A DNA stretch of 33,807 nucleotides from sequence record NC_049457.1, one strand, 5' to 3'. This DNA is from Escherichia phage vB_EcoM-12474III. The position numbers were made by a program, and so were the translations under genes. The notes under the pieces were generated by a model. The model did not search any database, had not been told where the DNA came from, and saw only the letters and a list, made by a program, of their open reading frames with translations. Of the stretch, positions 4,663 through 29,062 are shown in pieces. The stretch's first letter is position 1. Each line of letters opens with the position of its first letter.

Positions 4663-4803
4663 TATCCCGTCATCACGCCCTCACACGCTCACCACCGCAC
4701 AAAACACCCCGCAGAGACACCAATGCCCCGGCGCACAATCTAAACGCCGTCACGACGCGCTCAGACGCTGAAAAAATAAAATCCGCACCACCGCCAGCGC
4801 GCA

Positions 4804-4822
4804 GTGCTTTCCCGCCTCGCCC
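4804..4822. other. cos: cos cohesive-end site (19 nt)
   Basis: Minus strand reads GGGCGAGGCGGGAAAGCAC, near-identical to the P2 cohesive end as I recall it (GGCGAGGCGGGGAAAGCAC); it lies about 170 bp beyond the Q stop, as in P2. Confidence 0.7.
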
Positions 4823-5008
4823 GCCCGCTTCATGGGTCGGTTTTAATGCAGTTGCATAACATATTATTCATAGCACCACTGTGAGTTTATGGCTTCATTT
4901 TAGCGAGTTACTTACGCATGCATTTTAATGCACATAATTGCAGTTCTAGCCTACGTTTAACTCCAGTGTTAATCTTTGCATATCACCATATCTAATGAGA
5001 TTAGAGTT

Positions 5009-6127
5009 ATGACAGAAAGCCTTGATTACATCGACCTCAATAAACTTGAGCTTGATACAAAAAATCCACGTCTTCCTGAAGGTGTTGAACGTACCCCAGA
5101 AGCAATGCTAAATCATATAGCTCTAACAACCTCTATTGAAGACTTGATGAATGCAATCGCAGAAAATGGATTTTTTCCTGGCGAGCCTCTTATTGCGGTT
5201 AAAGAGGGAGATAAGTACACCGTTGTGGAAGGCAACCGTCGCTTAACGGCAGTTAAACTTATTCATAACCCATATGAGTGCGACAGACCCAGCTCCCGGA
5301 TGATAGAAATCGCCGAAAGCGCTAAAGATAAACTAGGTACACTAGAAAAATTACCAGTGATCGTTAGAGATACCAGAGCTGAAATTTTACCTTATTTGGG
5401 TTTCAGACATATCACTGGTGTCAAACAATGGGAACCTCTATCGAAGGCTCGTTATATCGAGCAACTTTTTGGGCTCACCTCCCCAAACTCACCGACTAAT
5501 GATCGATATCATCAGGTTGCTCGTGCAATTGGTAGCAGAAAAGATCATATCAAGAGAAATCTAGATGCTTTAGCCGTTTATAAAGTAATGGAGAGCAATA
5601 ACTTTTATGATATTGATGGATTAGATGAAGAATCGATCAAGTTTTCAATTTTATCTACAGCCTTAGCTGACGAGAAAATTGGATTGTTTGTTGGCGTCTC
5701 AGAAAAAGACGAATATGGTGATATTACATCCAATGATGTAATAATTCACCCACATCATATAAATAGAGAAAATACCAGAGAACTTACACTATGGCTTTAT
5801 AAAAAGGATGATTCCGGGAAAACAAAGGTTGGAGAGTCCCGAAATTTACGCCTATTATCTTCTGTTATTGATAACCCCAAGGCTTTAACGTCCTTTAGAA
5901 ACGGGGCTGACCTTAAGGTTGCGTATCAGTTAACTGAAGACTTAAAACAAGATTTCATGACGTTACTTTATAAAGCTGAATCTGCATTAATTGAAGCGGC
6001 TGGAATTGTTGCAACCATTGATTACAATCCTGAAGCATTGGAAGTTGCAAGACGCCTAAGTCAAAATGTCAAACTTATTGGTAATACAATTAAAGCCAAA
6101 AAGGTTTCTGACGATGAAGATTTTTAA
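5009..6127 (+). CDS. ParB/Srx-fold (ParB N-terminal nuclease-like) domain protein, cargo gene
   Basis: N-terminus carries ParB-type motifs DTKNPR (aa 16-21) and VVEGNRRLTAV (aa 72-82, the GxRR box); ATG at 5009 follows a GAG-rich RBS; AT-rich relative to the core; overlaps the start of the next gene. Confidence 0.6.
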   Translation: MTESLDYIDLNKLELDTKNPRLPEGVERTPEAMLNHIALTTSIEDLMNAIAENGFFPGEPLIAVKEGDKYTVVEGNRRLTAVKLIHNPYECDRPSSRMIEIAESAKDKLGTLEKLPVIVRDTRAEILPYLGFRHITGVKQWEPLSKARYIEQLFGLTSPNSPTNDRYHQVARAIGSRKDHIKRNLDALAVYKVMESNNFYDIDGLDEESIKFSILSTALADEKIGLFVGVSEKDEYGDITSNDVIIHPHHINRENTRELTLWLYKKDDSGKTKVGESRNLRLLSSVIDNPKALTSFRNGADLKVAYQLTEDLKQDFMTLLYKAESALIEAAGIVATIDYNPEALEVARRLSQNVKLIGNTIKAKKVSDDEDF

Positions 6128-7106
6128 AATCGGAGACATTCATCCTAGTGTTCCTCATCTTTTTGCAGACCTTGCAGAACTTGCTACGGTTATAAATTAT
6201 TCTGGTCGTTATGATCTACATAAAAATGACCTCATAACAATAAGAACTCAAAGTAACACAAGTGTGGATGATATTGATCAAGAATATCAAGAAGATGAAA
6301 ATGAAGGCTGCGATGCTGAACGCAATGACCGTTTAGAAAGACAAGTTGAAGATGTCTGGACGCAACTCGATTTTAGACAAAATTTTCTCAAGGATATTTA
6401 TCCATTTATTATTAATGGTGACTTTATTTCATTGAAAGAAAACCTCACTGAGATACAAAGAATATATATTTTCTTACTCGCATGCTCGAGGTTACGTTCT
6501 TTCACAAAGGCTAGGCAAGGAATAATACAGTTTTGGGCAAAAAATTTTGCTGTCGTAAGTAAATTTTGTGCAACAGCACTACTCCCAGCACACTCAACTG
6601 TACGAGTATTTGACGCAAACTCAGATGACAGGCGAAAATATTATGGTACTGATTTAAGAAAAGCCTTGAAAAGGCTAGGAAAAGACTTAGCTGTTCCTTA
6701 TATTAATGAGCAAGAGTGCGAAAGAGCTGATCCGAGAGGTGATGGTGGTTTTGATATAGTTGCAACTATAGAATTTGAAGATAAATTAAGTAGTAACTTT
6801 GCCTTTTTAGGTCAATGTGGAGCCCAAGAAAGAGATTGGCCCAAAAAAACACTTGAAGCCCACTCATTGAAACTACGAACATATTTTCAAGTGCATTTTG
6901 ACATACCAACTCTAATGTTTACCCCCGTATTCTATCGAAACTCAGATGGTCAATGGGTAGACAATAGCCCTTGCGCTGGAGTATTGATCATTGACAGAGC
7001 AAGGATATTACAGCTTTTAAAAAAGACAAACCATTGCCCTAAAATAGTTTCAGAACAATGGTTTCTTGATTTCGAACAAATTATCAATGATCTTAAGGTC
7101 GAATAA
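6114..7106 (+). CDS. Hypothetical protein with a possible PD-(D/E)xK nuclease motif; operon partner of the ParB-fold gene
   Basis: ATG at 6114 overlaps the upstream gene end (6127); protein contains RGDGGFDIVATIEFEDK (aa 208-224), reminiscent of the Mrr-type GDGGxD ... ExK catalytic signature; AT-rich. Confidence 0.5.
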   Translation: MKIFKIGDIHPSVPHLFADLAELATVINYSGRYDLHKNDLITIRTQSNTSVDDIDQEYQEDENEGCDAERNDRLERQVEDVWTQLDFRQNFLKDIYPFIINGDFISLKENLTEIQRIYIFLLACSRLRSFTKARQGIIQFWAKNFAVVSKFCATALLPAHSTVRVFDANSDDRRKYYGTDLRKALKRLGKDLAVPYINEQECERADPRGDGGFDIVATIEFEDKLSSNFAFLGQCGAQERDWPKKTLEAHSLKLRTYFQVHFDIPTLMFTPVFYRNSDGQWVDNSPCAGVLIIDRARILQLLKKTNHCPKIVSEQWFLDFEQIINDLKVE

Positions 7107-8045
7107 CTAATCCCAAATATCTGGAAGAGATTTAGCAACCGCCTCAAATAAAGGAGGCGGAACAGCATTGCCAACTACTGTATACTTCATATTAATAGAA
7201 GCCCGTTCAGTTTCTGGAAAAATTAGGTCTCCAAAACCCTGTAAAATAGCGGCCTCTCGATAACTAAACCTACGAGCTGGTGCATCCGAAGTAAATTGCC
7301 ACTTATCTGGACCCAATTTTTCTAATGTTGGACTTATTGGATGTAGAGGCATATGTCTAGGATTTGCAACAATTGTTTTAGATATCTGATCCCAATCTTG
7401 CCGACGGTTGCGCGATAGATAATACCAATGAAAATCGGCATCATAAAACTCACCAATAGGCCAAACAGGCATATGACCAATAGCATCACGAATTGTTGAA
7501 TATGGTTTCAAGCCATCACCATGTGTTGGTTTTGGAAATTTGTATGTAATACCATAGTCTTTTCGTATTCCTACGATAAAGATTCTCTTCCTATCTTGTG
7601 ATACGCCATAGTGGGACGCATTCAGAATTTGCGAGCTTACTGTATAACCTGCTTCTTCGAAAACTTTGAATTGATCCTTTAACAAATGTTCAAAGTTACG
7701 CCTTACCATTCCAGAAACATTCTCTACAATGAATGCTTTTGGCTTAATCTTTCTCAAAGCACGAGCAAACTCTAAATATAGAGTATTAATCTTTCTATCT
7801 GCCTTCCTTGCTCCACCCTGGCTAAATCCCTGGCAAGGATAGCATCCGATAAGCAATTCGGCAGAAGGGAACGATTGGAGTCCTGAAATATCGCCCAATA
7901 TGTAATCAGTTTCAGGATGGTTTTCTAAGTAAACGTCCCTTGCATAAGGCAAAATATCGTTTGCCATCAGCACATTGAACCCTGCTCTCAAAACTCCCGC
8001 ATCAGAACCACCACATCCAGAAAAAAGTGAAACTACAGTTGGCAT
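7107..8045 (-). CDS. DNA (cytosine-5)-methyltransferase
   Basis: Canonical C5-MTase motifs: FSGCGG (motif I, aa 8-13), PCQGFS (motif IV, aa 70-75), ENV (motif VI, aa 108-110), a QDRKR motif (VIII-like) and a C-terminal GNAVPPPL; convergent with, and abutting, the 6114..7106 gene. Confidence 0.88.
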   Translation of the reverse strand: MPTVVSLFSGCGGSDAGVLRAGFNVLMANDILPYARDVYLENHPETDYILGDISGLQSFPSAELLIGCYPCQGFSQGGARKADRKINTLYLEFARALRKIKPKAFIVENVSGMVRRNFEHLLKDQFKVFEEAGYTVSSQILNASHYGVSQDRKRIFIVGIRKDYGITYKFPKPTHGDGLKPYSTIRDAIGHMPVWPIGEFYDADFHWYYLSRNRRQDWDQISKTIVANPRHMPLHPISPTLEKLGPDKWQFTSDAPARRFSYREAAILQGFGDLIFPETERASINMKYTVVGNAVPPPLFEAVAKSLPDIWD

Positions 8046-8257
8046 CGCCCCTCCTAAAAACCGACCGCGTATTATAGCGAAACCACCCCTTGGGAAAAGC
8101 TAGATTTCGCCAAGTTTTGATATTCTCATGTTTTAGTAGTTGTGGCCATCTTTAACGAGAGAAAGATGAAATTGAGTTCTCATTAATTTTCAATAGGTTT
8201 AATTGTAAACACAGCAGGAATCAAAGCTAACACGTCGCTACGCTCATTGTTCAACCC

Positions 8258-8290
8258 CGCCATCTCTGAAAACAAGTTTCAGAAATGGCG
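8258..8290. promoter_or_regulatory. Imperfect palindrome upstream of the methyltransferase gene
   Basis: cgccatctctgaaa-acaag-tttcagaaatggcg, 13/14 complementary arms; sits in an AT-rich spacer about 210 bp upstream of the MTase start. Confidence 0.35.
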
Positions 8291-8296
8291 AGTATA

Positions 8297-8542
8297 CTAC
8301 ATCCTATGCGGTAGTTTCTTAGGCATGTTTGCTGGTCGAAATACCTCAATTTTCTGTCTACTGATATCGTTAAACCGTCTGTAATTATCCCGGACCATTT
8401 CGGCACACCCGACCAGCTCATCAGGCGTCAGATTTTCGTTGACCATAATCTGCTGTAGACGGTGGACAATGGCCATCAGCTTGATATTTTTAGTTTTATG
8501 CTGCGGTATCTCGCCTGGTATTCTGTGCATTATCCAAGCCAC
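8297..8542 (-). CDS. Small hypothetical protein (81 aa; start uncertain, possibly 8476)
   Basis: ORF only; occupies the position of the small post-A ORFs in P2-like phages. Confidence 0.4.
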   Translation of the reverse strand: MAWIMHRIPGEIPQHKTKNIKLMAIVHRLQQIMVNENLTPDELVGCAEMVRDNYRRFNDISRQKIEVFRPANMPKKLPHRM

Positions 8543-8982: not shown

Positions 8983-11267
8983 GATGTCCACTCCATTACT
9001 GTTGAGAATCCCGGCCACACATCAGCGACCAGATACGTGAATTTTTTTCCGTCATAATTTACGGTTGCTCCACGCGCCAGCGCCTCAAGTTCCCATCGCT
9101 GAGGCCAGATGCCGTTCTGAGCAAGGTCAACACGGATACGGGTAATTTGCATACGCTCCGACCGGGTCAGCCTGGCCGATGGCGCTATTTCATTCGGTTT
9201 TAACGGGCTTCCGTTTCTTTGCTGACGGTTTGGTGTTCTCAGGCCGTGTTTTAATGCGCCCCTGAGCGCCCTCACGACCTCCGGGTCATTCCATTCGATA
9301 ACACCGTCATCAACCAGATTAAGCACGGCTGCGGCGCGCTCAGAAGGTGTGGGAGCCGGTAACGAAGTATCACCACCGGTGAGCTTTCCACAGTTATTGA
9401 CAGGACTCCGAGGCGCGGCGATGCCGCTTTTTAAAGTCAAAGGCTCAACGACCGGCACTTTCGGAACAATGCGCCAGTCCGTCGTTCTGGTGATATGAAT
9501 ATGACGCGCGCCGAGATGCGGCGCGTAAATGCCGACCACTCTCTCGACTTCTTCCTCGTACTCGTTAACTTCATCCGACGGACTACGGGCGACCCTGACA
9601 GTCTGACAATCGCGCGGGACATTTGCCCCACCCTGCGCGCTGATATACAGCGCAAAATCACCACTGTCTGCGGCGGCGCGTGCAGCCTCGACGCGCTCGT
9701 CAAACTCATCAGCAATGCTGACGCCGCGAGGCAATTTGCGTAGTTCACGGTAAGCCCCCATTGTCGGCAGGCCAACCGTTTTAAATTGCGGAATGCGCCA
9801 CGTTGACGCCCATGCGGTAACAGCCGCGGCAGTATCTTTCAGCGGTCTGCCGGTATCGTTATCGAGCTGCCCATCCAGTGCATAGCCGTCGATATTTTTT
9901 GAGATGTATTTCGCGATATACCCCGCAGCACCGCCCCGATTAAGATGTTTTGCCTGAAAACGGTTTCGCGCGGCTCCTCTTTCGTCGCCATCCTCTTTGA
10001 GCGCATAGCGACGCATGATTTCAATAATCTGGTTACGCTGGCGTGGATTACAAAAAAGCATCATATGCCAGTGCGGCGTTCCGTCGTGGTGTGGCTCAAC
10101 GACACGCAAACCGTAGGCCTGTAAATCATTATCCTTGAATGCCGTGCGCATCAGGCTCCAGATACGGCAGAGATAACGCTGCGCATCCTTTGGATTAAAT
10201 GCCTCATGGTTCCAGCCGTGATTAAGCTGGACGGTTTTACTTTCGCCTTTTCCGACCTGACGTGTCGGGTGATACTTTGACGGCGCGGTCAGCGTGATAA
10301 ACATCCCCACATCACCCTCTGCGGCGGCGTAACGCTCAATACCGGCAATGGTGTTCATCAGCTCCATCCGGCGAATTTCAGGATTAGAAATACTGCCCAT
10401 CACCTTACTGATAAGGTCGATGCGTTCGCCGGTTTCCCTGTTTTCAAGGTCACACGATTTAAGAAATTCCAGATTTGCCTGGCGGCGTGCACGTACATCA
10501 CGAATGGCATGTTTACTGGCATAAGGAGAACGGTCTTTATTCACCGCCCCGACAGCAATCAGTAACGCCTCATGCCAGCGCATACGCTGGCCTTTAAGCT
10601 GATGAGCCCACCACTCATCGTTAAACAGACGGGCAATGGCAGAATATGCCTGCCTCGTGGTCATCTGCCCTTTACGGTATTTTTTCCAGTAGAGAGGGGA
10701 AATATTGAAAGCTCGTGCAGCGCCAGCAACATGACCATACAGGTGAGCCTGCGCCTCATCCGTAAACAGCGATTCTTTCTCGCCATGCGCATCCACCCAG
10801 GCATCGCTGAGTTCCTCATACATCATGAAAAGCTGCGATGAGATACGGGCGGCAAATTTTTTCAGCTCCTTGTCATTCATTCCCGGCAGGCGCGCATAGT
10901 GGTCACGCTCTGCCAGAAACAGTAACGACGCGTCGGTGTTCATTTCATGGCGCTGATTCACACGCTCAATGCGCGGCCATAAACGACGCTGAAAAGTGGA
11001 TGTGAGAAAATAAAACCCGTGCACCGGGCTTTTATTGCGCCGGATGTAGTCATAGCGTGAAGTAAACAGCGAGCGCAAAAAGTAAGGCAGGCGGTTAATC
11101 GTGGATAAAACACCTTGCACCTGACGCATCTCGTCACGTGTAAGGGGTCTTTCGCGCCCGACAGCCTCGCGTGGCGCGTTCCATGCATAAGCACCGGTAA
11201 ACGCCTTACCGGTGCCTGCGGCAAATGCTGACGGAGGGACAAAACGCCCGGAGGCTTTAACGGCCAT
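8961..11267 (-). CDS. A: Rolling-circle replication initiator endonuclease gpA
   Basis: Long ORF; from MAVKASGRFVPPSAFAAGTGK... it matches P2 gpA as I recall it (about 761 aa); start chosen at that Met. Confidence 0.9.
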   Translation of the reverse strand: MAVKASGRFVPPSAFAAGTGKAFTGAYAWNAPREAVGRERPLTRDEMRQVQGVLSTINRLPYFLRSLFTSRYDYIRRNKSPVHGFYFLTSTFQRRLWPRIERVNQRHEMNTDASLLFLAERDHYARLPGMNDKELKKFAARISSQLFMMYEELSDAWVDAHGEKESLFTDEAQAHLYGHVAGAARAFNISPLYWKKYRKGQMTTRQAYSAIARLFNDEWWAHQLKGQRMRWHEALLIAVGAVNKDRSPYASKHAIRDVRARRQANLEFLKSCDLENRETGERIDLISKVMGSISNPEIRRMELMNTIAGIERYAAAEGDVGMFITLTAPSKYHPTRQVGKGESKTVQLNHGWNHEAFNPKDAQRYLCRIWSLMRTAFKDNDLQAYGLRVVEPHHDGTPHWHMMLFCNPRQRNQIIEIMRRYALKEDGDERGAARNRFQAKHLNRGGAAGYIAKYISKNIDGYALDGQLDNDTGRPLKDTAAAVTAWASTWRIPQFKTVGLPTMGAYRELRKLPRGVSIADEFDERVEAARAAADSGDFALYISAQGGANVPRDCQTVRVARSPSDEVNEYEEEVERVVGIYAPHLGARHIHITRTTDWRIVPKVPVVEPLTLKSGIAAPRSPVNNCGKLTGGDTSLPAPTPSERAAAVLNLVDDGVIEWNDPEVVRALRGALKHGLRTPNRQQRNGSPLKPNEIAPSARLTRSERMQITRIRVDLAQNGIWPQRWELEALARGATVNYDGKKFTYLVADVWPGFSTVMEWTSWQKFTR

Positions 11268-13437: not shown

Positions 13438-13731
13438 ATGCAGACATTCGAAAAACTGAAAGCGATTAGGAAAGCAGAAGGCTTAACACAGGCGAAATTC
13501 AGCGAAATTAGCGGGATAGCTCTAGGAACAGTCAAAAATTACGAAAGTGGGCATAAAGACCCTGGTCTCAGCATCGTTATGCGAGTCACAAATACGCCTT
13601 TATTTAAAAAATATACGCTCTGGTTAATGACTGGTGATACGTCACCACAAGCTGGTCAGATCGCGCCGGCTCTCGCACACATTGGGCAAAAACCAACAGA
13701 ATCAGACCACTCCGAAAAACAGACTGGTTAA
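13438..13731 (+). CDS. C: Immunity repressor C
   Basis: 97-aa ORF; C-terminal ...KYTLWLMTGD...GQIAPALAHIGQ... resembles P2 C; the N-terminus is divergent. Confidence 0.8.
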   Translation: MQTFEKLKAIRKAEGLTQAKFSEISGIALGTVKNYESGHKDPGLSIVMRVTNTPLFKKYTLWLMTGDTSPQAGQIAPALAHIGQKPTESDHSEKQTG

Positions 13732-13800
13732 CACTCTATAAACATTACATTTTCACTATTTGTTACCAAGATGGTGAATACAGCGTCAGAGGGCTTTCTT

Positions 13801-14781
13801 ATGTCAATTAAGAAGCTCGATGATGGACGCTATGAAGTGGACATTAGACCTCGCGGTCGCGACGGAAAACGCATCCGCAGGAAATTTGAAAGAAAAGCTG
13901 AGGCTGTAGCATTTGAGCGATACACAATCGCCTACGCCAGCCAGAAAGAATGGGCAGGTCAGCGAGCAGATCGCAGAACTTTGAGTGAGTTGCTGGACAT
14001 CTGGTGGAAATATCACGGGCAAAACCACGAGCATGGAACAAAAGAGTTTAATCATCTGCTCAAAACCATCAGCGGCATAGGTGATATACCAGTGAGCCGG
14101 ATGAGCAAAAGAGCTTTGATGGATTATCGTTCCATGCGACTACGTGATGGTATCAGTGCCGCAACGATAAACCGTGACATGTACCGATTATCCGGCATGT
14201 TCACAAAATTAATTCAATTGGATGAATTTTCCGGGCAACACCCAATTCACGGACTGCCGCCACTGGCGGAGGCCAACCCTGAAATGACGTTCCTGGAAAA
14301 AGCAGAAATCGAAAAACTGTTAAATGTTTTGGATGGTGATGACTTACTTGTCGCACTTTTATGTCTGAGCACTGGAGGAAGATGGACGGAAGTTGCCACG
14401 CTAAAACCAGCACAGATTACAAATTGCAGGGTTACCTTCCTGAAAACCAAAAACGGTAAAAAGCGAACCGTGCCGATTTCTGAGGAACTGGAGAAAAAAG
14501 TTAAAGAGGAGGCCAGCGCTAAATTATTCAAAGTTGATTATGAGAAGTTTTGCGGGATTTTACGCAGAGTGAAGCCAGATATACCACCCAATCAGGCAAC
14601 CCACATCCTGCGGCATACATTCGCAAGCCATTTCATGATGAATGGGGGCAATATAATCGCACTGCAACAGATTCTGGGACATGCGAGCATTCAGCAGACG
14701 ATGGCCTATGCGCACCTTGCGCCTGACTACCTGCAAAATGCCGTCGCACTGAATCCTCTAAAAGGCGGAGTGACGTTATAA
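13801..14781 (+). CDS. int: Tyrosine integrase
   Basis: MSIKKLDDGRYEVDIRP... (P2 Int-like N-terminus); C-terminal HILRHTFASHFMMNGG ... LGH ... MAYAHL tyrosine-recombinase motifs. Confidence 0.9.
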   Translation: MSIKKLDDGRYEVDIRPRGRDGKRIRRKFERKAEAVAFERYTIAYASQKEWAGQRADRRTLSELLDIWWKYHGQNHEHGTKEFNHLLKTISGIGDIPVSRMSKRALMDYRSMRLRDGISAATINRDMYRLSGMFTKLIQLDEFSGQHPIHGLPPLAEANPEMTFLEKAEIEKLLNVLDGDDLLVALLCLSTGGRWTEVATLKPAQITNCRVTFLKTKNGKKRTVPISEELEKKVKEEASAKLFKVDYEKFCGILRRVKPDIPPNQATHILRHTFASHFMMNGGNIIALQQILGHASIQQTMAYAHLAPDYLQNAVALNPLKGGVTL

Positions 14782-14795
14782 ATTTCCCTTCTGAG

Positions 14796-15050
14796 TGTCC
14801 ACATAGTGTCCACACTCTCAGAACTTTGTAGCCCTTCCAGTCCCTTATAGGTTTTCTTAAGTTACTGTTTTCTTACGGAAACCGATGTAAGTGATTGATA
14901 AAAAAAACCCCCACATCATGTGGGGGAAGACAGGGATGGTGTCACAAAAAAGCACCTAACCTGATGATATAAATGGATTTATGTCAACCACTGTCCACAT
15001 AGCGTCCACATCGACCATAAATAAGCCCCTCGACTGAGGGGCTATTTTTG
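14796..15050. other. attP: attP region: Int arm-type sites flanking a probable core
   Basis: TGTCCACATAGTGTCCACA (14796..14814) and TGTCCACATAGCGTCCACA (14992..15010) are tandem copies of the reverse complement of TGTGGACA, which I recall as the P2 Int arm-site motif; the probable core is the A-run plus hairpin at about 14898..14930. Confidence 0.55.
14900..14926 (-). terminator. Rho-independent terminator downstream of ogr (likely overlapping the attP core)
   Basis: Minus strand reads stem cccccacatgatgtggggg followed by eight T. Confidence 0.7.
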
Positions 15051-15053
15051 TGA

Positions 15054-15272
15054 TCACATCCACATAATTTGCTGCCCTGACGGCAACGGGTGCGGCCTCA
15101 CGGCGTGGACTTCTCCCGGCTTCACGATGTATCTCTGTACCGACTCATAAGTGATGAACGTGGCGCTGCAATTCACGTTCTGGCACTGGTGATAACGCTC
15201 TTTTGTCGTGTCAGTGATATAGCGGCTTGTACGCGCATGTGCGGCATGCTGGCATAAAGGACAATGAAACAT
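15054..15272 (-). CDS. ogr: Late-gene transcriptional activator Ogr (zinc finger)
   Basis: MFHCPLCQHAAHARTSRYITDTTKERYHQCQNVNCSATF... has the C-X2-C-X22-C-X4-C pattern and matches P2 Ogr (72 aa); RBS GGAAGAGG upstream of the ATG at 15272. Confidence 0.88.
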   Translation of the reverse strand: MFHCPLCQHAAHARTSRYITDTTKERYHQCQNVNCSATFITYESVQRYIVKPGEVHAVRPHPLPSGQQIMWM

Positions 15273-15352
15273 CGCGAGCACCTCTTCCGGTTTTGTTAAT
15301 GGTGCCATTTTATTTAATTTATCCTTATAAAACAAACAGATAAAACTAAACA

Positions 15353-16516
15353 TTAATCATCATCTTCTGTTTCGTACTCCACATCAGAAAGCCTGACCTC
15401 AAGCTCTAAGGACGTCGTGAAGCCGCTATTATTCAGAAAATGTGTCACCTTAGTGATTGTCCAGTCCTGCTCGTCTATGACGCGCTTAAAGCCTGACACT
15501 CTGACCGGTGTTTCCGTGTAAATATCAGCACGACCAGTGGCCAGGCTGATGGAGAACTCCGCAACGCCCCGTTGCAGTTTATCCCACTTCGCCTGAGCGG
15601 CACGCATGGCCTGCGCTTTTGTGGCATATACCGTAGTCAGGGCAAAAACGTTGTCAGCTTCACCTGCCATGTATTCACCTTCGCGCGCTTCCGGTGCTTT
15701 TGGCGCTTTCTTCTGCGTGACCGGTTTCGCTTTCGGGTGCTCCAGTGCGCGCAGGTGTTTCTCTTTCTTTTTGCGTTTCAGTTTTACCTTCTGCTTTTGC
15801 GGCTTCGGGTCTTTGGTGTGTAACCACTTTGCCGTTACGCCGGTGTAAGCTCCACGGTCAGCAATCGCAAAATGATGACGGTCGCCGTCGCTGCGGGTGA
15901 TGGTAATCTGCGGGATTTTTTTACCGCTGGCCGTCACCCCCTGCCCCACTTTGAGAAACAGCAGTTTTCCCATTTTTACCGACACCTCACCGCCGTTGCG
16001 TTCAGCAAGGCGGGTCAGGAATTTTGCATCAGACTCCTGTGACTGGTCGATGTGCGGGATTTTAATTCCGGCCAGTGACGGAGCGACACTGGCTTCCAGC
16101 CTGTTACGGGAGGCTATCGCCTCAACAATCGCACCGAGCGTGGTGTCATGCCAGGAGCCTTCACGGCGGGAATTGAGCGTCCCGCGAAAATCTGCACTCC
16201 TGGCGCGGATGGTGACCACATCCGGCGCGCCCCGGTGTTCAACCTCATCAACGGTAAATTTCCCTTTGCATACCAGGGCAAAACCTTTCCAGCCGATATA
16301 CACCGTCAGGACAGCGCCACGAACCGGCAGCCCGACCTGCCCGTCGGCATCGTTCAGTTCAATATCAAGCTGGTCAGCCTCAAAGCCCCGGTTATCCGTC
16401 AGGGTCATGCTCATCAGACGGTCGCTGATATTGCCGGTAATATCCCTGCTGTCGAGCATCAGCATGTAATCCGGCGTCAGCGTACTGCCTGCATCAAATG
16501 TCAGCGCATCCAGCAT
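15353..16516 (-). CDS. D: Tail protein gpD
   Basis: 387-aa ORF, the same length and position as P2 gpD. Confidence 0.85.
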   Translation of the reverse strand: MLDALTFDAGSTLTPDYMLMLDSRDITGNISDRLMSMTLTDNRGFEADQLDIELNDADGQVGLPVRGAVLTVYIGWKGFALVCKGKFTVDEVEHRGAPDVVTIRARSADFRGTLNSRREGSWHDTTLGAIVEAIASRNRLEASVAPSLAGIKIPHIDQSQESDAKFLTRLAERNGGEVSVKMGKLLFLKVGQGVTASGKKIPQITITRSDGDRHHFAIADRGAYTGVTAKWLHTKDPKPQKQKVKLKRKKKEKHLRALEHPKAKPVTQKKAPKAPEAREGEYMAGEADNVFALTTVYATKAQAMRAAQAKWDKLQRGVAEFSISLATGRADIYTETPVRVSGFKRVIDEQDWTITKVTHFLNNSGFTTSLELEVRLSDVEYETEDDD

Positions 16517-16995
16517 TATCCCGCCTCCGTCATACCCGTGAATTTAGTCGCTATACTGCCAGCCTTACCGATGAGCGATTCCGCCTGTTTACCGATATCG
16601 CCATAAAGCGCGGCCAGTGATTCATCAACGCGGGTGAGCGACAGCGTAAAATCAATTTTTCGGGGTGTGCCGTCTGCAAAGAAAATACTCCCTGTTTCAC
16701 TCACCTTACTGATGACATACATGCCGTAAATCATGCCGGTGCCATCCAGCAACGGCCACGCCCGACCTTCCTCTGCCATCAGCCTGAGCGTGGTCATCGT
16801 CAGCTTGCCGCCGGTCAGTTCGGGATAAAGCACACCGGCCAGCGTGATGTTTTCCTCACCCACACCGAGAAATTGAAAGGCATCCCGTTTGCCGATACGG
16901 GAATTTGACGGCCAGCGATAATCTGATTCACGCTGCATGGTCTGGTGTGGCAGCGTCTGGCGCATAAAAACAAACATACCTAACGCGAGCATCAT
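16516..16995 (-). CDS. U: Tail protein gpU
   Basis: 159-aa ORF between T and D, matching P2 gpU length. Confidence 0.85.
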   Translation of the reverse strand: MMLALGMFVFMRQTLPHQTMQRESDYRWPSNSRIGKRDAFQFLGVGEENITLAGVLYPELTGGKLTMTTLRLMAEEGRAWPLLDGTGMIYGMYVISKVSETGSIFFADGTPRKIDFTLSLTRVDESLAALYGDIGKQAESLIGKAGSIATKFTGMTEAG

Positions 16996-21973: not shown

Positions 21974-23056
21974 TTGAAACCAGAGCAAATGAAAAACAGG
22001 GAAGAATTAACTAGCTTTGCAACGAAACTTGCTACTCAAATCAAGATGCAAACCAGCAGCAATTTAAATGATCTTTCTACAGCCCAAGAGAGCTCGCTAT
22101 TGCCTCTAATCAATCATGCCTGGGGAGAGCAGTTTGAGGATATGAATAGGATATCCCAAAACTACCCTGGTCTCGACTATGTGCAACCGGGAAAGCGCTT
22201 AGGTTTGCAAATGACTGCCACTGCAAGAAAGGTTAAGTATCAGAAAACATTAGACAAACTTCGAAATAATGAGAAGTTAAAGGGTAAGTTTGACGAGATT
22301 TGGTTTTTCGTCCTCACGGCTGAACGCCTACCTGATAACGTACGTGAACACCCTGACGATTTTCAGTGCAAATATTTCACATTGTACGACCTAGTCGAAA
22401 AGGTAATGGGACAGACTTTAGAATTTCAGCGTGATTTTTTGACCCTTGCCCGGAAAGAATACTCGGATTATTTCTCTCCTGGGGACGTTGCTTTCAATCA
22501 GGGGTATTGTGTATCAGAAAACAAGCCGATCCCCTTTGACTTGAGTCTTTTCAACGCGTTAATTCATACTAATGAATGGTTTGATGATGTTGACGAAGGT
22601 GAGCAGATCGTATATGAATTTCTAGAACTTTTTAAAAATAGACTGCGTCAATGCACTTTATCTGCTAGAAATCTTTTAAGCAAAATTATCAGTGAGATAA
22701 ATATACCGAAGAGTACAAGCACGAAAATCGAGTTTCCTGAAAAGCAACTTTTCGGGCCACTAATGATTGACGATACAAACTATCAATCTTTTTCAAAAGA
22801 CCTTGATGATTTGTTCGAGATGAGTCTTATTGAACGATGGGACAATTATGTTGGAATGTACTATAAGGGTGATGATGCATATATCAAAAATGAACGTATG
22901 ATCAGCGTGTCATTTCCAAAGATTGAACCCGAAATGAATCTGTATGCGGCGTTATATATCTTTTATGAAAAAAATCATGATATTGCAAAACTTGTGAACG
23001 CAATTGAAAATAGTGATTTTTCTCTGCTCGCTGACAGCACTTGCCAAAATAATTAG
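21974..23056 (+). CDS. Hypothetical 360-aa protein, AT-rich cargo between FI and G (start TTG at 21974 with GGAG 8 nt upstream; alternative ATG at 21989)
   Basis: Long ORF on the strand opposite to all flanking late genes; visibly AT-rich codon usage; no transmembrane segments; no family recognised. Confidence 0.7.
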   Translation: MKPEQMKNREELTSFATKLATQIKMQTSSNLNDLSTAQESSLLPLINHAWGEQFEDMNRISQNYPGLDYVQPGKRLGLQMTATARKVKYQKTLDKLRNNEKLKGKFDEIWFFVLTAERLPDNVREHPDDFQCKYFTLYDLVEKVMGQTLEFQRDFLTLARKEYSDYFSPGDVAFNQGYCVSENKPIPFDLSLFNALIHTNEWFDDVDEGEQIVYEFLELFKNRLRQCTLSARNLLSKIISEINIPKSTSTKIEFPEKQLFGPLMIDDTNYQSFSKDLDDLFEMSLIERWDNYVGMYYKGDDAYIKNERMISVSFPKIEPEMNLYAALYIFYEKNHDIAKLVNAIENSDFSLLADSTCQNN

Positions 23057-23307: not shown

Positions 23308-23835
23308 TTACTGCGGCATTTCCGGCCATTCAGGATTTGCAGGATCCACACGACTGACCAGAACACTGTAGCGTTCCCATGCTTCCAGTCGGCTGCGTTC
23401 CTCCTCTGTTGCCATATTCAGCCTGACAGCGCGCTCCAGCAGCAAAATCACGGATTCAGCTTCGGAAAGTAAAGTTGCCTTTTGTGATTCTGCCAGTTGA
23501 TGCTGTTCGTCTGCCGTATAAATCCGCTTAATCACGGCACCATCCTTAAACATCCATTTACCTGAGTCATCAGCACGTCGGTTGGCGGTAATATCAGGAA
23601 CCTCGACAACGCTAAAACCTTCAGGGTTAAGCGTTGAAGCATCTCTGGTGATGCCGACAATTATATTATTCTCGTCGTAAACAATCTTTATCGTGTCTTC
23701 CTGAAAATTACTTACTTCCTCATACCAGTTTTTTCCGTCTTCAGACCATAACCAGACAACATCAAAATTTTTTGTCAGTTGATATTGGGCAACAGTTTTG
23801 GGATTACCCGCAGTAATATTTTTTAAATGCTGCAT
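23308..23835 (-). CDS. G: Tail fiber assembly protein gpG
   Basis: 175-aa ORF, matching P2 gpG length and position downstream of H. Confidence 0.85.
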
Positions 23836-23838
23836 AAA

Positions 23839-25767
23839 TTACACCTGTGCGACGTTATACCATGTGCCATTAATGTATTTTTGTATTGGTCTGAATACTG
23901 CGGGGTCATCACCATCGACTTCACCGACAATACCAAGCCCTGTAATTACATGGCCTGATTTTTCATACATCACACCTTTTTGCATAGTCTGAACAACACG
24001 TGTGCCCAGGCGAATATCTCGTACATAGCGAGAATCCGATTCAGCTTTGGTATATGCACCAACATCTCCCGCAGAGGGTTTGCGGGTTGTGGTGTAAAAC
24101 TCTGACCAGTTAGCCTCAAATCCATAACCATCACGTGCTGAACGATAAAAAATACCGCCGTTCTTATAATTCACACGGAACTGTACGGCAGGGCAACTCC
24201 CCGCATTCATATTGAAGTGGAGGATTAATGTCGATGCACCGCTGATATCTGCATCATAAACACCGCTATTCCAGTTCCAGCCAACAGCTTTATCATTTGC
24301 AACCCTGCTTCCTGTTTGCCCTAAAGCAAATGCAGGCTGCTGGTTTTTCGTGTTGTAGTCTCGTCGCCAGCCGGGGGCATAAGCATCACCATGATTAATA
24401 TAAGTGAATTGAGCGTTAGTGGTGCCGCCTCCGGTAGAAGTGCTTGGTGTTGTTACACGGATGGTCATGGCACCTTTATTACCCATAACCTCAATAACGC
24501 AACCTGCAAGATGAATAGTTCCACAGCCAGTATCGGTAATAATTTTATTATTGCCGTATGACCATGAACATTTGCACATCCAGTACGGATGATTAAATGC
24601 ACCACGGGAATCCAGCCATTCAATAAACTGAGCGGTTGTCCAGTTTCCGGCTTCAGTGCTCAAAGCGCCGCTATAAGCACGACAGGCACCGATATTTTTC
24701 GTGAAGGTATCCTTTCCCGGAATATCCGCACCGTTCTGATCTTTCTGAAGACGTTTTTCAGCATTGTCATAGGCAGACTTCACTGCTTTTGGTGTTGCGG
24801 CCAGCGTTTCAGAATCACTGTTGGCGGCGCTACTGAGCTGAACAAGACCTTTCCGCGCCGTGGTGGCGTCCTGTGCAGTGTATTTCCCGTTAGCAAGGTC
24901 ATACGCGGCCTTTACCGCCTTTGGCGTTGCCGCAAGCGTTTCAGAATCGCTGTTGGTGACGCTACTGAGCTGGACAAGACCTTTTCGCGCTGTGGTGGCG
25001 TCCTGTGCGGTATATTTCCCGTTAGCAAGGTCATATGCTGCTTTTACCGCTTTTGGTGTTGCGGCAAGCGTTTCAGACGTGCTGTTGGTGGCACTACTGA
25101 GCTGGACAAGACCTTTTCGCGCTGTGGTAGCGTCCTGTGCGGTATATTTCCCGTTAGCCAGGTCATATGCGGCCTTAACCGCTTTCGGCGTTGCAGCCAG
25201 TGTTTCAGACGTGCTGTTGGTCGCACTGCTTAACTGAGTAAAACCTTTTGCGGTCAGCGAGGCGTCCGGGTGACGTCGTGACTGTTCATGTTCTGCAATT
25301 TTGTCATCAACGTAATCCTGCGTCGCCATCACCGTTGTGGTGTCAATGGTCAGCTCCACTGAGGTCACACTGCTGACGATGATGACCATGCGACAGGTCT
25401 GCGAACGCCCTGAGCCTTCGGCAAGAGCTGGCTTATAACTTTCGGCCATGTTCGCCACGGCAATTAATGTTCCCGCATCATCGTACAGGCCAAGCTCACG
25501 CATCCAGAAACCGCCCACCTCCGGCGGAATAACCAGCTCTGCGATAATATAATTACTGTTTCGTTTGTCCTGGCTGATTTTGTTCAGCGCATGTCGCCAG
25601 ACTTCATGGATAAGCCCGGTCTGTCCGGCATCCGGGACAGGCAATTTACCACCGCCATCCCCGACGGCCATCGTGGTAATGTTGACCTTCCGCCCTCCCG
25701 GCGCGGTTGCCGCTGCCAGCTTTGCTGCACCGGCAGTGGTGATAACGGTTCTGAATTTTGTGCTCAT
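23839..25767 (-). CDS. H: Tail fiber protein gpH
   Basis: 642-aa ORF; N-terminus MSTKFRTVITTAGAAKLAAATAPGGRKVNITTMAVGDGGG... is P2 H-like; contains internal 44-aa tandem repeats. Confidence 0.9.
   Translation of the reverse strand: MSTKFRTVITTAGAAKLAAATAPGGRKVNITTMAVGDGGGKLPVPDAGQTGLIHEVWRHALNKISQDKRNSNYIIAELVIPPEVGGFWMRELGLYDDAGTLIAVANMAESYKPALAEGSGRSQTCRMVIIVSSVTSVELTIDTTTVMATQDYVDDKIAEHEQSRRHPDASLTAKGFTQLSSATNSTSETLAATPKAVKAAYDLANGKYTAQDATTARKGLVQLSSATNSTSETLAATPKAVKAAYDLANGKYTAQDATTARKGLVQLSSVTNSDSETLAATPKAVKAAYDLANGKYTAQDATTARKGLVQLSSAANSDSETLAATPKAVKSAYDNAEKRLQKDQNGADIPGKDTFTKNIGACRAYSGALSTEAGNWTTAQFIEWLDSRGAFNHPYWMCKCSWSYGNNKIITDTGCGTIHLAGCVIEVMGNKGAMTIRVTTPSTSTGGGTTNAQFTYINHGDAYAPGWRRDYNTKNQQPAFALGQTGSRVANDKAVGWNWNSGVYDADISGASTLILHFNMNAGSCPAVQFRVNYKNGGIFYRSARDGYGFEANWSEFYTTTRKPSAGDVGAYTKAESDSRYVRDIRLGTRVVQTMQKGVMYEKSGHVITGLGIVGEVDGDDPAVFRPIQKYINGTWYNVAQV
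24760..25250. repeat. Tandem 132-bp coding repeat (about 3.7 copies) inside tail fiber gene H
   Basis: gttagcaagg / gttagccagg landmarks recur at 24889, 25021 and 25153 (period 132); the protein repeats KGLVQLSSATNSTSETLAATPKAVKAAYDLANGKYTAQDATTAR. Confidence 0.9.
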
Positions 25768-25777
25768 TATTCCTCAC

Positions 25778-26308
25778 TTATCCGGGGTAAACCGTAATTA
25801 CATCGCCGTCATAAGCCACACCACCGGCGAACAGGTAGCCGGGAATGTCCCGGGTAATGTTCAGGCCAATAAGGTGGCGGCTTGCAGGTTTGGCATCAGC
25901 AATCAGCCGTTCCATTTCCTGATACATTGCCTCTGTGATGCCACTTTCCAGTACACCAATATCAAGCCGGAAGGTGCCCGGCGGGTCACTGGTTTCCCAC
26001 CACTCCGTCACGTTGATGAGATAGCCGAGCGGCTCCACCACACGCCGGATTGCACCTATAGTGCCTTTATGACAGTGGATGAAATAGGCATCGCGGATAA
26101 CGGCGCGTTTTGTCGCTTCCGGCCACTTTTCATCCCACCTGTCGACCGAAAACGCCCACGCCAGCCACGGCAGCAGATTTGCCGGACAGGTGTCCGGGTT
26201 CCACAGCTCACGAATACTGACCGGCGTTTTTTCAATTTCCGCACAGGCTTTTGCGGCGGCGACCTCAAGCGGTGATGAGCCGGTCGGCAGCAGTCGCGAA
26301 TCACTCAT
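25778..26308 (-). CDS. I: Baseplate protein gpI
   Basis: 176-aa ORF, P2 gpI length; overlaps the J stop. Confidence 0.88.
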   Translation of the reverse strand: MSDSRLLPTGSSPLEVAAAKACAEIEKTPVSIRELWNPDTCPANLLPWLAWAFSVDRWDEKWPEATKRAVIRDAYFIHCHKGTIGAIRRVVEPLGYLINVTEWWETSDPPGTFRLDIGVLESGITEAMYQEMERLIADAKPASRHLIGLNITRDIPGYLFAGGVAYDGDVITVYPG

Positions 26309-28276: not shown

Positions 28277-29062
28277 ATGGTCAGCTATAATGTGACTAAT
28301 GTGTGGGGGCTAATCGTTTTTTTCCTTTGTAGCTTTGCAGTATTAGCATTTTTTAGCTTTGGTAAAAGTAACCTTATGAGGCTTATTGCACATTATTTCA
28401 ATTTTGGATATTCAGACAAAAAATTAAAAAGACTTGACCGCGAGTGGCGCGACATTCAACTATTTAAAATAATTAACGGAATCAATGTATCAGGCATTGA
28501 AAATGTGAGAATGATACAGCAGGGACTGATTGATGGAAAACTAAAAACATCGTATTTTTTCCTTACTCGCATCTGGGGTGACATAACAAAACCACCACAC
28601 ATAATTAAAACAATAATTGTAATTCTGGCCAGTATTTTTTACATTCTCCTCGCATGTTATATACACAACAAACAATCCGCTATAGTAAGAGATGCCATAG
28701 GCATACCATATAAAAATATGATGTACTATGTTTATAGTGACAAAGTTCTTTTATCCTTCAACAATAAAACAGTTGAATTCAATAAAACTTATAGCCTTGC
28801 CGATTGCAAGAGGCTACGAAACGTATTTATAAAAGACACACTTCCTGAGATCGCCTGCAATAAGCTCTTACAGCTAAACGAGGAGGACTCCGAATGGTTA
28901 AGTCAGGAGATTAAAGATAATAACAGCCAAAAAAAAGCATTATTAATAATATCCCTCATCTATTTCATTTCAGGTCTGGTTATATTCCTGTCATATACAA
29001 AATTCCTTTACGCCAATAAGAAGGTTGTAGAATACAAAGCATCAAATAAAAATCACTCATAA
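28277..29062 (+). CDS. Predicted membrane protein (261 aa), AT-rich cargo between V and S
   Basis: ATG at 28277 with an AGGAG RBS 6 nt upstream; three hydrophobic helix-like segments (aa about 10-30, 115-135, 225-245); strongly AT-rich; strand opposite to the flanking late genes. Confidence 0.75.
   Translation: MVSYNVTNVWGLIVFFLCSFAVLAFFSFGKSNLMRLIAHYFNFGYSDKKLKRLDREWRDIQLFKIINGINVSGIENVRMIQQGLIDGKLKTSYFFLTRIWGDITKPPHIIKTIIVILASIFYILLACYIHNKQSAIVRDAIGIPYKNMMYYVYSDKVLLSFNNKTVEFNKTYSLADCKRLRNVFIKDTLPEIACNKLLQLNEEDSEWLSQEIKDNNSQKKALLIISLIYFISGLVIFLSYTKFLYANKKVVEYKASNKNHS

What the first reader, a model, noticed from the sequence alone, without database searches (positions are those of the whole stretch)
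24760..25250. 132-bp in-frame tandem repeats in tail fiber gene H
About 3.7 near-identical copies of a 44-aa unit form part of the fiber shaft. The differences between copies are few and mostly synonymous or conservative, suggesting recent expansion. Copy-number change by recombination would alter fiber length without a frameshift. The segment after the repeats differs from the P2 H C-terminus as I recall it and is probably the receptor-binding domain.
Basis: seen in the sequence. Interest (0 to 1): 0.45.

Follow-up and report, generated by a model that had tools for sequence, protein, structure and literature searches.

The report
Variable 44-residue repeats in P2-type tail fibre
The tail-fibre gene of this P2-like coliphage carries four in-frame copies of a known 44-amino-acid fibre repeat, and relatives carry one to six, so recombination changes copy number; this is a real but ordinary feature.

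Summary
A 132-bp repeat (TRF 24766-25221, 3.5 copies, 88% match) lies in frame on the minus strand, inside the 642-aa P2-type tail-fibre gene H (23839..25767). It encodes four 44-aa units, each a match to Pfam PF03406, the "phage tail fibre repeat".

The window is almost certainly the published phage vB_EcoM-12474III. Its H gene is 100% identical to those of sibling isolates II, IV and V.

Copy number does vary among relatives:
- P2 itself has 2 units.
- H proteins about 99% identical at both ends have 2, 3 or 4 units.
- Other close relatives have 5 or 6, and other Enterobacterales have 1-4.
- Two E. coli O145 prophages, otherwise identical, differ by an exact 264-bp (two-unit) in-frame deletion. 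Its crossover lies in a 12-nt identity at the codons for the conserved SETL residues.

"Recent expansion" is not supported. Synonymous divergence between units (dS 0.41-1.1) far exceeds that between the collar domains of different E. coli P2-like phages (0.02-0.07). The units are old and under purifying selection. Units 2 and 3 share 25 polymorphic sites and have no fixed difference, which indicates ongoing exchange between them.

The post-repeat segment is a Mu/P1 S'-type receptor-binding region (PDB 8ju3), but the last 65 aa are P2-like. This is a known kind of feature and of low novelty.

The parts
23839..25767 (-). Tail-fibre gene H (642 aa), P2 type. It is 100% identical to the H genes of phages vB_EcoM-12474II, IV and V.
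   Evidence: ORF; Pfam PF12571, 4x PF03406 and PF12604; megablast identity; aa 1-251 are 95.6% identical to P2 gpH.
25315..25767 (-). N-terminal 'tail-collar fibre' domain (aa 1-151), the presumed baseplate-attachment end.
   Evidence: PF12571, E 1.9e-58. It is the only part that AF2 modelled with confidence.
25132..25263 (-). Repeat unit 1 (aa 169-212). It has an edge-specific head, ASLTAKGF.
   Evidence: Across 27 alleles it shows 9 fixed differences from unit 2.
25000..25131 (-). Repeat unit 2 (aa 213-256), an internal unit.
   Evidence: It is 89% identical in DNA to unit 3. Units 2 and 3 share 25 polymorphic sites and have no fixed difference.
24868..24999 (-). Repeat unit 3 (aa 257-300), an internal unit.
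24736..24867 (-). Repeat unit 4 (aa 301-344). It has the unit core followed by a Mu-S-like linker tail, SAYDNAEKRLQKDQ.
   Evidence: It aligns to Mu S aa 112-155.
24037..24735 (-). Mu/P1 S'-type distal fibre and receptor-binding region (aa 345-577). It starts at the NGADIPGKDTFTKNIGA junction.
   Evidence: phmmer against PDB 8ju3: aa 334-640 against chain 177-486, domain E 7.8e-150, with the strong part ending near aa 574. About 90% DNA identity to P1 Sv'. No similarity to P2 gpH. GC falls to 0.42-0.46 in the 3' part of H, 23401-24600.
23839..24036 (-). P2-like C-terminal tip (aa 578-642, plus the stop codon).
   Evidence: 80% identical to P2 gpH aa 605-669. It also aligns to the Mu S C-terminus in 5yvq.
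23308..23835 (-). Tail-fibre assembly gene G (175 aa).
   Evidence: PF02413 Caudo_TAP, E 2e-33; 89% identical to P2 gpG.
25778..26308 (-). Baseplate gene I, immediately upstream of H (synteny marker).
   Evidence: PF09684 Tail_P2_I, E 6e-56.

Best explanation
What it is: the 528-bp array encodes four tandem copies of the known 44-residue 'phage tail fibre repeat' (Pfam PF03406). They lie between the baseplate-binding collar domain and the receptor-binding end of a P2-type tail fibre.

How it works: the units are old and kept alike at protein level by purifying selection. Because their DNA is still 60-89% alike, and identical over short stretches at the conserved SETLAATPKAVK core, misaligned homologous recombination or replication slippage between units adds or removes whole 132-bp units. 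This never breaks the reading frame. The same process causes gene conversion between the internal units.

Result: a family of fibres with 1-6 units on otherwise the same protein.

Shown here: the array, its family membership, copy-number polymorphism, one clean deletion event, and the signature of exchange between units.

Inferred only: that each unit adds a fixed increment of length or flexibility to the proximal shaft of the trimeric fibre, and that this affects adsorption.
For: - The array and its reading frame.
- Four PF03406 matches (260 bits) between PF12571 and a gp37_C/S'-like C-terminal region.
- Copy number in three independent samples: 120 close homologues have 2-6 units (2:7, 3:36, 4:47, 5:26, 6:4). 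75 complete H ORFs (73 from IMG/VR, with collar 98% or more identical to the window's, plus the two O145 prophage loci) have 2:16, 3:2, 4:45, 5:12. 75 H genes from other species have 1:35, 2:20, 3:16, 4:4. Spacing is 44 aa starting at aa 168-172, apart from the N-terminally truncated partial proteins and three outliers.
- Proteins of 642, 598 and 554 aa are 99% identical at both ends and carry 4, 3 and 2 units.
- E. coli O145 RM9154-C1 and RM9872 differ by 1 base in each 4-kb flank. Their H genes differ only by an exact 264-bp in-frame deletion, with the crossover within nt 690-701.
- Across 27 alleles, units 2 and 3 share 25 polymorphic sites and have 0 fixed differences, while the edge units have 9-35 fixed differences. 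One allele (L024) has two 100% identical internal units.
- Both 2-unit and 4-unit fibres work: P2 has 2 units, and the 12474 phages form plaques (PMC6834657).
Against: - No structure of the unit exists. The AF2 monomer model has pLDDT below 50 across the repeats. The only PDB chains containing a unit are Mu S and S', and whether that stretch is ordered could not be checked. The 'shaft length' step is therefore untested.
- Within each C-terminal type the modal copy number is stable: 2 for the P2 type, 4 for the S' type, 5 for the DKRLFLRNIG type. The three sibling isolates have the same array as the window. Change is therefore infrequent, and no functional consequence has been shown.
- The 2-unit O145 strains may stem from a single event.
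Confidence: 0.8

Rival explanations
1. The main significance of the repeats is as a recombination adaptor. Conserved repeat and linker DNA, shared by fibre genes of unrelated phages (P2, Mu, P1, lambdoid Stf), provides homology for swapping receptor-binding modules, and copy-number change is a by-product. This reading does not exclude the best explanation.
For: - The H query matches 2310 of 5426 complete E. coli genomes. Among the listed hits, those confined to nt 532-858 (the repeat region) fall in lambdoid 'prophage tail fiber N-terminal domain' proteins at 84-85% identity.
- H alleles with the same collar carry at least four different C-terminal types. These diverge either inside a unit after KAVK (P2) or just after the NGADIP linker.
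- The window's H is a three-part mosaic of P2, Mu/P1 S' and P2 segments, and GC drops in the 3' part of H.
Against: - A single unit plus the linker would suffice as an adaptor, so this does not explain arrays of 4-6 units.
- Identity to lambdoid repeats (84-88%) is lower than among P2-type arrays, so no recent exchange with them is evident.
Confidence: 0.35
2. One reading: a young, recently expanded and rapidly changing array, in effect a contingency locus for fibre length.
For: - Protein-level near-identity of units 1-3.
- Copy-number variants exist.
- One allele has two identical internal units.
Against: - dS between the window's units is 0.41-1.1, against 0.02-0.07 between collar domains of different P2-like coliphages.
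- The same 4-unit array is found base for base in three sibling phages and four IMG/VR contigs, and the H gene of a Vietnamese E. coli chromosome is 99.9% identical over its full length.
- Modal copy number is stable within each fibre type.
Confidence: 0.05
3. The units are not passive spacers. They are small globular knobs that themselves bind something, such as a surface glycan or another virion protein, so copy number tunes avidity rather than length.
For: - In rotary-shadowing EM of the prophage fibre protein EPclB, the PF03406 (Pf2) region was interpreted as a globular body between two stalks (PMC3368898).
- There is strong purifying selection on every unit (dN/dS about 0.1 among units 1-3).
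Against: - No binding data exist.
- The unit sequence is nearly the same in fibres with quite different receptors (P2, Mu G+ and Mu G- types), which argues against a role in specificity.
Confidence: 0.1
4. Assembly artefact: the copy number in the window is wrong because short reads cannot resolve a 528-bp repeat.
For: Many database H proteins are 'partial', with several ending at or near the repeat array, so assemblies do break around this gene.
Against: - The units differ by 10% or more in DNA, which is enough for unique assembly.
- An identical array occurs in three independently assembled sibling genomes and four IMG/VR contigs, and a complete E. coli chromosome carries an H gene 99.9% identical over its full length.
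Confidence: 0.02

Closest known systems
Bacteriophage P2 tail-fibre protein gpH (NC_001895, 669 aa) with its assembly protein gpG
   Same: - The gene order is I-H-G.
- aa 1-251 are 95.6% identical, covering the collar and the first two units.
- The last 65 aa are 80% identical.
- G is 89% identical.
   Different: - P2 has 2 units and the window has 4.
- The region between the repeats and the tip (window aa 345-577, P2 aa 252-604) shares no detectable similarity between the two.
- The 12474 phage plates on an E. coli C derivative and on MC1061, but not on W3110, JM109, DH5alpha or the ATCC 11303 strain.
Mu G(-) fibre S' and P1 C(-) fibre S' (PDB 8ju3; P1 Sv')
   Same: - aa 334-640 align to the S' part of 8ju3 with domain E 7.8e-150. 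The strong part of that alignment ends near aa 574.
- H nt 1016-1718 are 90% identical in DNA to P1 Sv'.
- Mu S also has one PF03406 unit and the NGADIP linker (aa 112-173).
   Different: - There is no invertible segment, no invertase and no alternative S/U cassette next to H. A single G gene is followed by a SMEK-domain gene and then the sheath gene.
- The N-terminus is the P2 collar, not Mu Sc.
- Mu has one unit and the window has four.
- The extreme C-terminus is of the P2 / Mu S type rather than the S' type.
Pfam PF03406 Phage_fiber_2, the 'phage tail fibre repeat' (called Pf2 in E. coli prophage collagen-like fibre proteins)
   Same: Each of the four units matches the family model end to end. 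The best stretch covers profile positions 1-41 of 42.
   Different: Nothing defining differs. A 2021 modelling study treated the family as lacking an experimental structure and obtained only a poor homology model for it (PMC8078820). My PDB profile search found a unit only in the Mu S chains.
fiAA91-ss and other Peduovirus H alleles
   Same: They have the same collar and repeat architecture. fiAA91-ss matches H nt 1-1680 at 90.5% identity.
   Different: - The fiAA91-ss match spans 132 bp less than the query, so I infer 3 units from span alone.
- Other alleles carry 2, 4 or 5 units with other C-terminal modules.

Membership tests
Pfam PF03406 Phage_fiber_2 (phage tail fibre repeat) | A match to the family HMM above the curated gathering score. 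| tested here: met
   260.5 bits against a cut-off of 22, with 4 stretches.
Pfam PF03406 Phage_fiber_2 (phage tail fibre repeat) | Tandem units of about 40-44 residues within a tail-fibre protein. | tested here: met
   The units start at aa 169, 213, 257 and 301, an exact 44-aa spacing. The host protein has a tail-collar N-terminal domain and sits between genes I and G.
Pfam PF03406 Phage_fiber_2 (phage tail fibre repeat) | The three-dimensional fold of the unit in the trimer. | not testable with these tools
   The AF2 monomer has pLDDT below 50 over aa 145-383. Only the Mu S chains in the PDB carry a unit, and the ordered residues are not visible to me.
P2-type (Peduovirus) tail fibre gpH | An N-terminal collar domain homologous to P2 gpH. 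| tested here: met
   aa 1-251 are 95.6% identical to P2 gpH; PF12571, E 1.9e-58.
P2-type (Peduovirus) tail fibre gpH | The baseplate I - H - G (assembly protein) gene order in a P2-like late operon. | tested here: met
   Tail_P2_I lies upstream and Caudo_TAP downstream. The same order is annotated in P2 and in related prophages.
P2-type (Peduovirus) tail fibre gpH | The same receptor-binding region as P2 gpH. | tested here: not met
   There is no BLASTP match between window aa 345-577 and P2 gpH. The protein is a P2-type fibre with a foreign central module.
Mu/P1 invertible-segment fibre S/S' | A distal fibre region homologous to S'. | tested here: met
   8ju3 domain E 7.8e-150 over aa 334-640; 90% DNA identity to P1 Sv'.
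Mu/P1 invertible-segment fibre S/S' | An invertible DNA segment with a Gin/Cin invertase and an alternative Sv/U cassette. | tested here: not met
   Downstream of H there is one G gene, then a SMEK-domain gene, then the sheath gene. No second cassette or recombinase is annotated in the equivalent prophages. Homology to P1 Sv' starts 640 nt inside Sv', not at cix. I did not run a dedicated search for invertase recognition sites.
Hypermutable contingency locus (repeat-mediated phase variation) | High-frequency length change, usually in short units, that switches expression. | tested here: not met
   The unit is 132 bp and always in frame. The array is identical in three sibling isolates, and the modal copy number is stable within each fibre type. 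The rate within a lysate was not measurable here.

The most novel reading that the evidence does not exclude
Copy number is not neutral. It is matched to the receptor-binding module: 2 units with the P2-type tip, 4 with the S'-type, 5 with the DKRLFLRNIG type. On this reading, unequal recombination in the array is the way P2-like phages re-tune fibre reach after acquiring a new tip. The raised synonymous diversity of the units (pi at third codon positions 0.11-0.20, against 0.047 in the collar) would then reflect continual conversion and exchange between units, and perhaps with fibre genes of co-resident prophages.
Probability: 0.15. Interest if true: 0.5.

Novelty: new member of a known kind. 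Interest (0 to 1): 0.25.

Why it matters
The practical value exceeds the conceptual value.

- P2 and P4 particles and R-type pyocins are being re-targeted by swapping fibre tips (PMC9942202). Natural, functional H proteins carry anywhere from 1 to 6 repeat units with clean in-frame junctions. This offers a ready-made way to vary the region between the collar and the tip, and a natural fusion point at the NGADIP linker.
- The repeat array is also a caution for annotation and assembly. In the GenBank records of the three sibling phages the gene is annotated only as 'hypothetical protein', and many database H proteins are listed as 'partial'.
- Biologically, this is a tidy, directly documented case of concerted evolution and unequal recombination inside a phage structural gene. 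It does not reveal a new mechanism.

Tried and rejected
- AlphaFold2 on full-length H with an 18-sequence alignment gave mean pLDDT 38.8, with only the collar confident. I therefore ran no fold search, since matches would be meaningless. A trimer cannot be modelled with the tool.
- A PDB sequence and profile search for a solved repeat unit found only the Mu S / S' chains. The papers on those structures (North 2019; Mori 2024) are not held, so I cannot say whether the unit is ordered in them.
- Literature searches for a prior description of copy-number variation in P2 H found none in the held library. The source paper for the 12474 phages never mentions the tail fibre. The classic subscription-journal papers (Haggard-Ljungquist 1992; Sandmeier 1994; cited from my own knowledge) could not be read, so prior description cannot be excluded.
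- I checked whether homology to P1 Sv' begins at the cix crossover site, which would point to descent from an invertible segment. It does not: it begins about 640 nt inside Sv'.
- I tested for a gene-conversion signature in the 25 repeat-region differences between the window and the O145 allele. At only 11 of 25 sites do both alleles occur at the same offset in other units, which is suggestive on its own but not decisive. The population-level test of shared polymorphism is the stronger evidence.
- I rejected the assembly-artefact and contingency-locus readings (see the rival explanations).

Full report
**1. The observation**

Tandem Repeats Finder reports one strong array in the window. It lies at 24766..25221 with period 132, 3.5 copies, 88% matches, no indels and score 667. 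All other arrays score 45 or less.

The array lies on the minus strand, inside a 642-aa ORF at 23839..25767. In coding register it gives four 44-aa units: aa 169-212, 213-256, 257-300 and 301-344, at window 25263..24736.

Units 1-3 share 36-42 of 44 residues. Unit 4 keeps the core (…GLVQLSSA.NS.SETLAATPKAVK) and ends in a linker (SAYDNAEKRLQKDQ). DNA identity between units is lower: 89% for unit 2 v 3, 76-80% for 1 v 2 and 1 v 3, and 60-72% for pairs with unit 4.

"Near-identical" holds for the protein but not for the DNA.

**2. What the gene is**

Pfam finds three elements in the protein:
- the P2 "tail-collar fibre" N-terminal domain (PF12571, aa 1-151);
- four PF03406 "phage tail fibre repeat" matches (260 bits against a cut-off of 22);
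- a weak gp37_C match (aa 485-579).

The neighbouring genes are a P2 I-type baseplate gene upstream and a Caudo_TAP assembly gene downstream.

The H gene is 100% identical over its full length to the H genes of Escherichia phages vB_EcoM-12474II, IV and V. The paper describing those phages gives genome sizes of 33,688-33,807 bp for four sibling isolates from one blood sample (PMC6834657). Isolates II, IV and V are 33,688, 33,731 and 33,714 bp. The 33,807-base window is therefore almost certainly vB_EcoM-12474III (inference). That paper never mentions the tail fibre, and GenBank annotates the gene as hypothetical.

**3. Comparison with P2**

P2 gpH (669 aa) has two units, at aa 169-212 and 213-251. 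Against P2 gpH, the window protein compares as follows:
- aa 1-251 are 95.6% identical;
- aa 345-577 have no detectable similarity;
- the last 65 residues are 80% identical;
- G is 89% identical to P2 G.

The foreign middle part matches the solved Mu G(-) fibre. The match to PDB 8ju3 has domain E 7.8e-150 over aa 334-640. H nt 1016-1718 are about 90% identical in DNA to P1 Sv'. The last repeat unit plus the linker aligns to Mu S aa 99-173.

H is therefore a mosaic with four parts:
- a P2 collar and repeats;
- a Mu-like last unit and linker;
- an S'-type receptor-binding region;
- a P2-like tip paired with a P2-like assembly protein.

GC content drops from about 0.53 over the 5' half of H to 0.42-0.46 in the 3' part of H (23401-24600) and in G.

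The published host range is growth on an E. coli C derivative and on MC1061, but not on W3110, JM109, DH5alpha or the ATCC 11303 strain. From my own knowledge of Mu G(-) and P1 C(-) tropism, which was not tested here, this is what an S'-type tip would suggest.

**4. Copy number among relatives**

Three independent samples agree.
- Among the 120 best protein homologues of the collar-plus-repeat part, units number 2 (7), 3 (36), 4 (47), 5 (26) and 6 (4).
- Among 75 complete H ORFs (73 from IMG/VR contigs, with a collar 98% or more identical to the window's, plus the two O145 prophage loci fetched earlier), the counts are 2 (16), 3 (2), 4 (45) and 5 (12).
- Among 75 complete H genes from one genome per species across Enterobacterales, the counts are 1 (35; for example Xenorhabdus, Serratia, Symbiopectobacterium), 2 (20), 3 (16) and 4 (4).

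The spacing is 44 aa and the array begins at aa 168-172 in nearly all of these. The exceptions are the N-terminally truncated partial proteins and three outliers.

Proteins of 642, 598 and 554 aa are 99% identical to each other at both ends and differ only in having 4, 3 or 2 units.

Copy number tracks the C-terminal type:
- the P2-type tip goes with 2 units in all 15 cases;
- the S'-type tip is mostly 4, with single 2-unit and 5-unit ORFs in that sample;
- the DKRLFLRNIG type is mostly 5;
- the DKERFLSNIN / DKGRFLSNIN types have 4 in every full-length ORF.

In addition, 3-unit and 6-unit S'-type proteins appear in the protein sample. The association could reflect common descent or functional matching, and I cannot separate the two.

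**5. A documented event**

Complete E. coli O145 genomes carry this prophage with an H span of either 1929 bp or 1665 bp. I compared RM9154-C1 (L001) with RM9872 (L002). Each 4-kb flank differs at one base. The H genes differ only by an exact 264-bp, two-unit, in-frame deletion with no other mismatch. The crossover is confined to nt 690-701 of H. In the window sequence the corresponding stretch is TCTGAAACGCT, which encodes the conserved S-E-T-L residues (read).

**6. Age and dynamics**

Nei-Gojobori dS between the window's units is 0.41 (unit 2 v 3) to about 1.1 (1 v 4), and dN/dS is roughly 0.1 among units 1-3. By contrast, dS between the window's collar domain and those of other E. coli P2-like H genes is 0.02-0.07. 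The units are therefore much older than the divergence of these phages, and "recent expansion" is not supported.

The array is nevertheless not static.
- 82 H genes (the window plus 81 loci) hold 61 different arrays.
- Nucleotide diversity is 2-4 times higher in the units than in the collar, and is concentrated at third codon positions.
- Identity between internal units ranges from 84% to 100% among alleles.
- Across 27 distinct four-unit alleles, units 2 and 3 share 25 polymorphic sites and have no fixed difference. Unit 1 v 2, 3 v 4 and 1 v 4 have 9, 21 and 35 fixed differences.

This is the classic picture of a tandem array in which internal units exchange by conversion or unequal crossover while edge units diverge.

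**7. What the units do physically**

This step remains inferred. By domain order the units lie between the attachment domain and the binding end, that is, in the proximal shaft.
- In a prophage collagen-like fibre protein, the PF03406 region looked globular by rotary shadowing (PMC3368898).
- A 2021 modelling study treated the family as lacking an experimental structure (PMC8078820).
- My AF2 monomer model was unusable over the repeats.
- No PDB chain other than Mu S carries a unit.

**8. Verdict**

The feature is real. It is a four-unit allele of a known repeat family, in a known gene, of an already deposited phage. Its view of the C-terminal region is right for the middle part and incomplete for the tip. 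Novelty is low: this is a new member of a known kind. The copy-number survey and the O145 deletion are modest new documentation.

Noticed in passing
window 21974..23056 (+): A 360-aa SMEK-domain ORF lies between G and the sheath gene, where P2 carries fun(Z). It has low GC (0.38-0.43), a Pfam PF21941 match (E 1.6e-19) and an N-terminal PADLOC match to Aga_REase-PNTD1-PNTD2 (E 4e-18). It is a candidate lysogenic-conversion or defence gene in a known P2 variable spot. The same gene is annotated in the O145 and VE-V10-F prophages.
   Followed up: partly
window ~4800..8400: A low-GC island (0.35-0.43) holds three ORFs. 7107..8045(-) is a C5 cytosine DNA methyltransferase (PF00145, E 4e-62). 4976..6127(+) has an N-terminus like PD-Lambda-5_A (E 8e-23). 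6066..7106(+) has no family match. This may be a restriction-modification or defence cassette. The related VE-V10-F prophage has a DUF7380 gene at this position instead.
   Followed up: partly
window 4820..4848 (+): The source paper reports one 29-bp sequence as both attL and attR. It occurs only once in the window, at the edge of the low-GC island.
   Followed up: no
window 28277..29062 (+): A 261-aa ORF has very low GC (0.33) and no Pfam or PADLOC match. It lies on the opposite strand from the flanking late genes, next to baseplate gene V. It is conserved as a 'hypothetical protein' in the related prophages.
   Followed up: partly
L164 (E. coli VE-V10-F, NZ_AP027971) 13596..16634 and 9560..10581: The chromosome carrying the closest H gene (99.9% identical over its full length) holds a decayed prophage. 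An ISEc12 element interrupts the virion morphogenesis gene, and the terminase, capsid and tail regions are truncated. The H gene is nevertheless intact.
   Followed up: no
protein hits P0001-P0120: A large share of database H proteins are annotated 'partial', and several end at or near the repeat array. One example is P0001 (404 aa, 358 member sequences). This suggests that assemblies often break in or near this gene, so copy numbers taken from draft genomes need care.
   Followed up: no
L024 (IMGVR_UViG_3300045988_127872) H gene, units 2 and 3: The two internal units are 100% identical in DNA. In the other alleles the figure is 84-98%. This looks like a very recent duplication or conversion event.
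   Followed up: no
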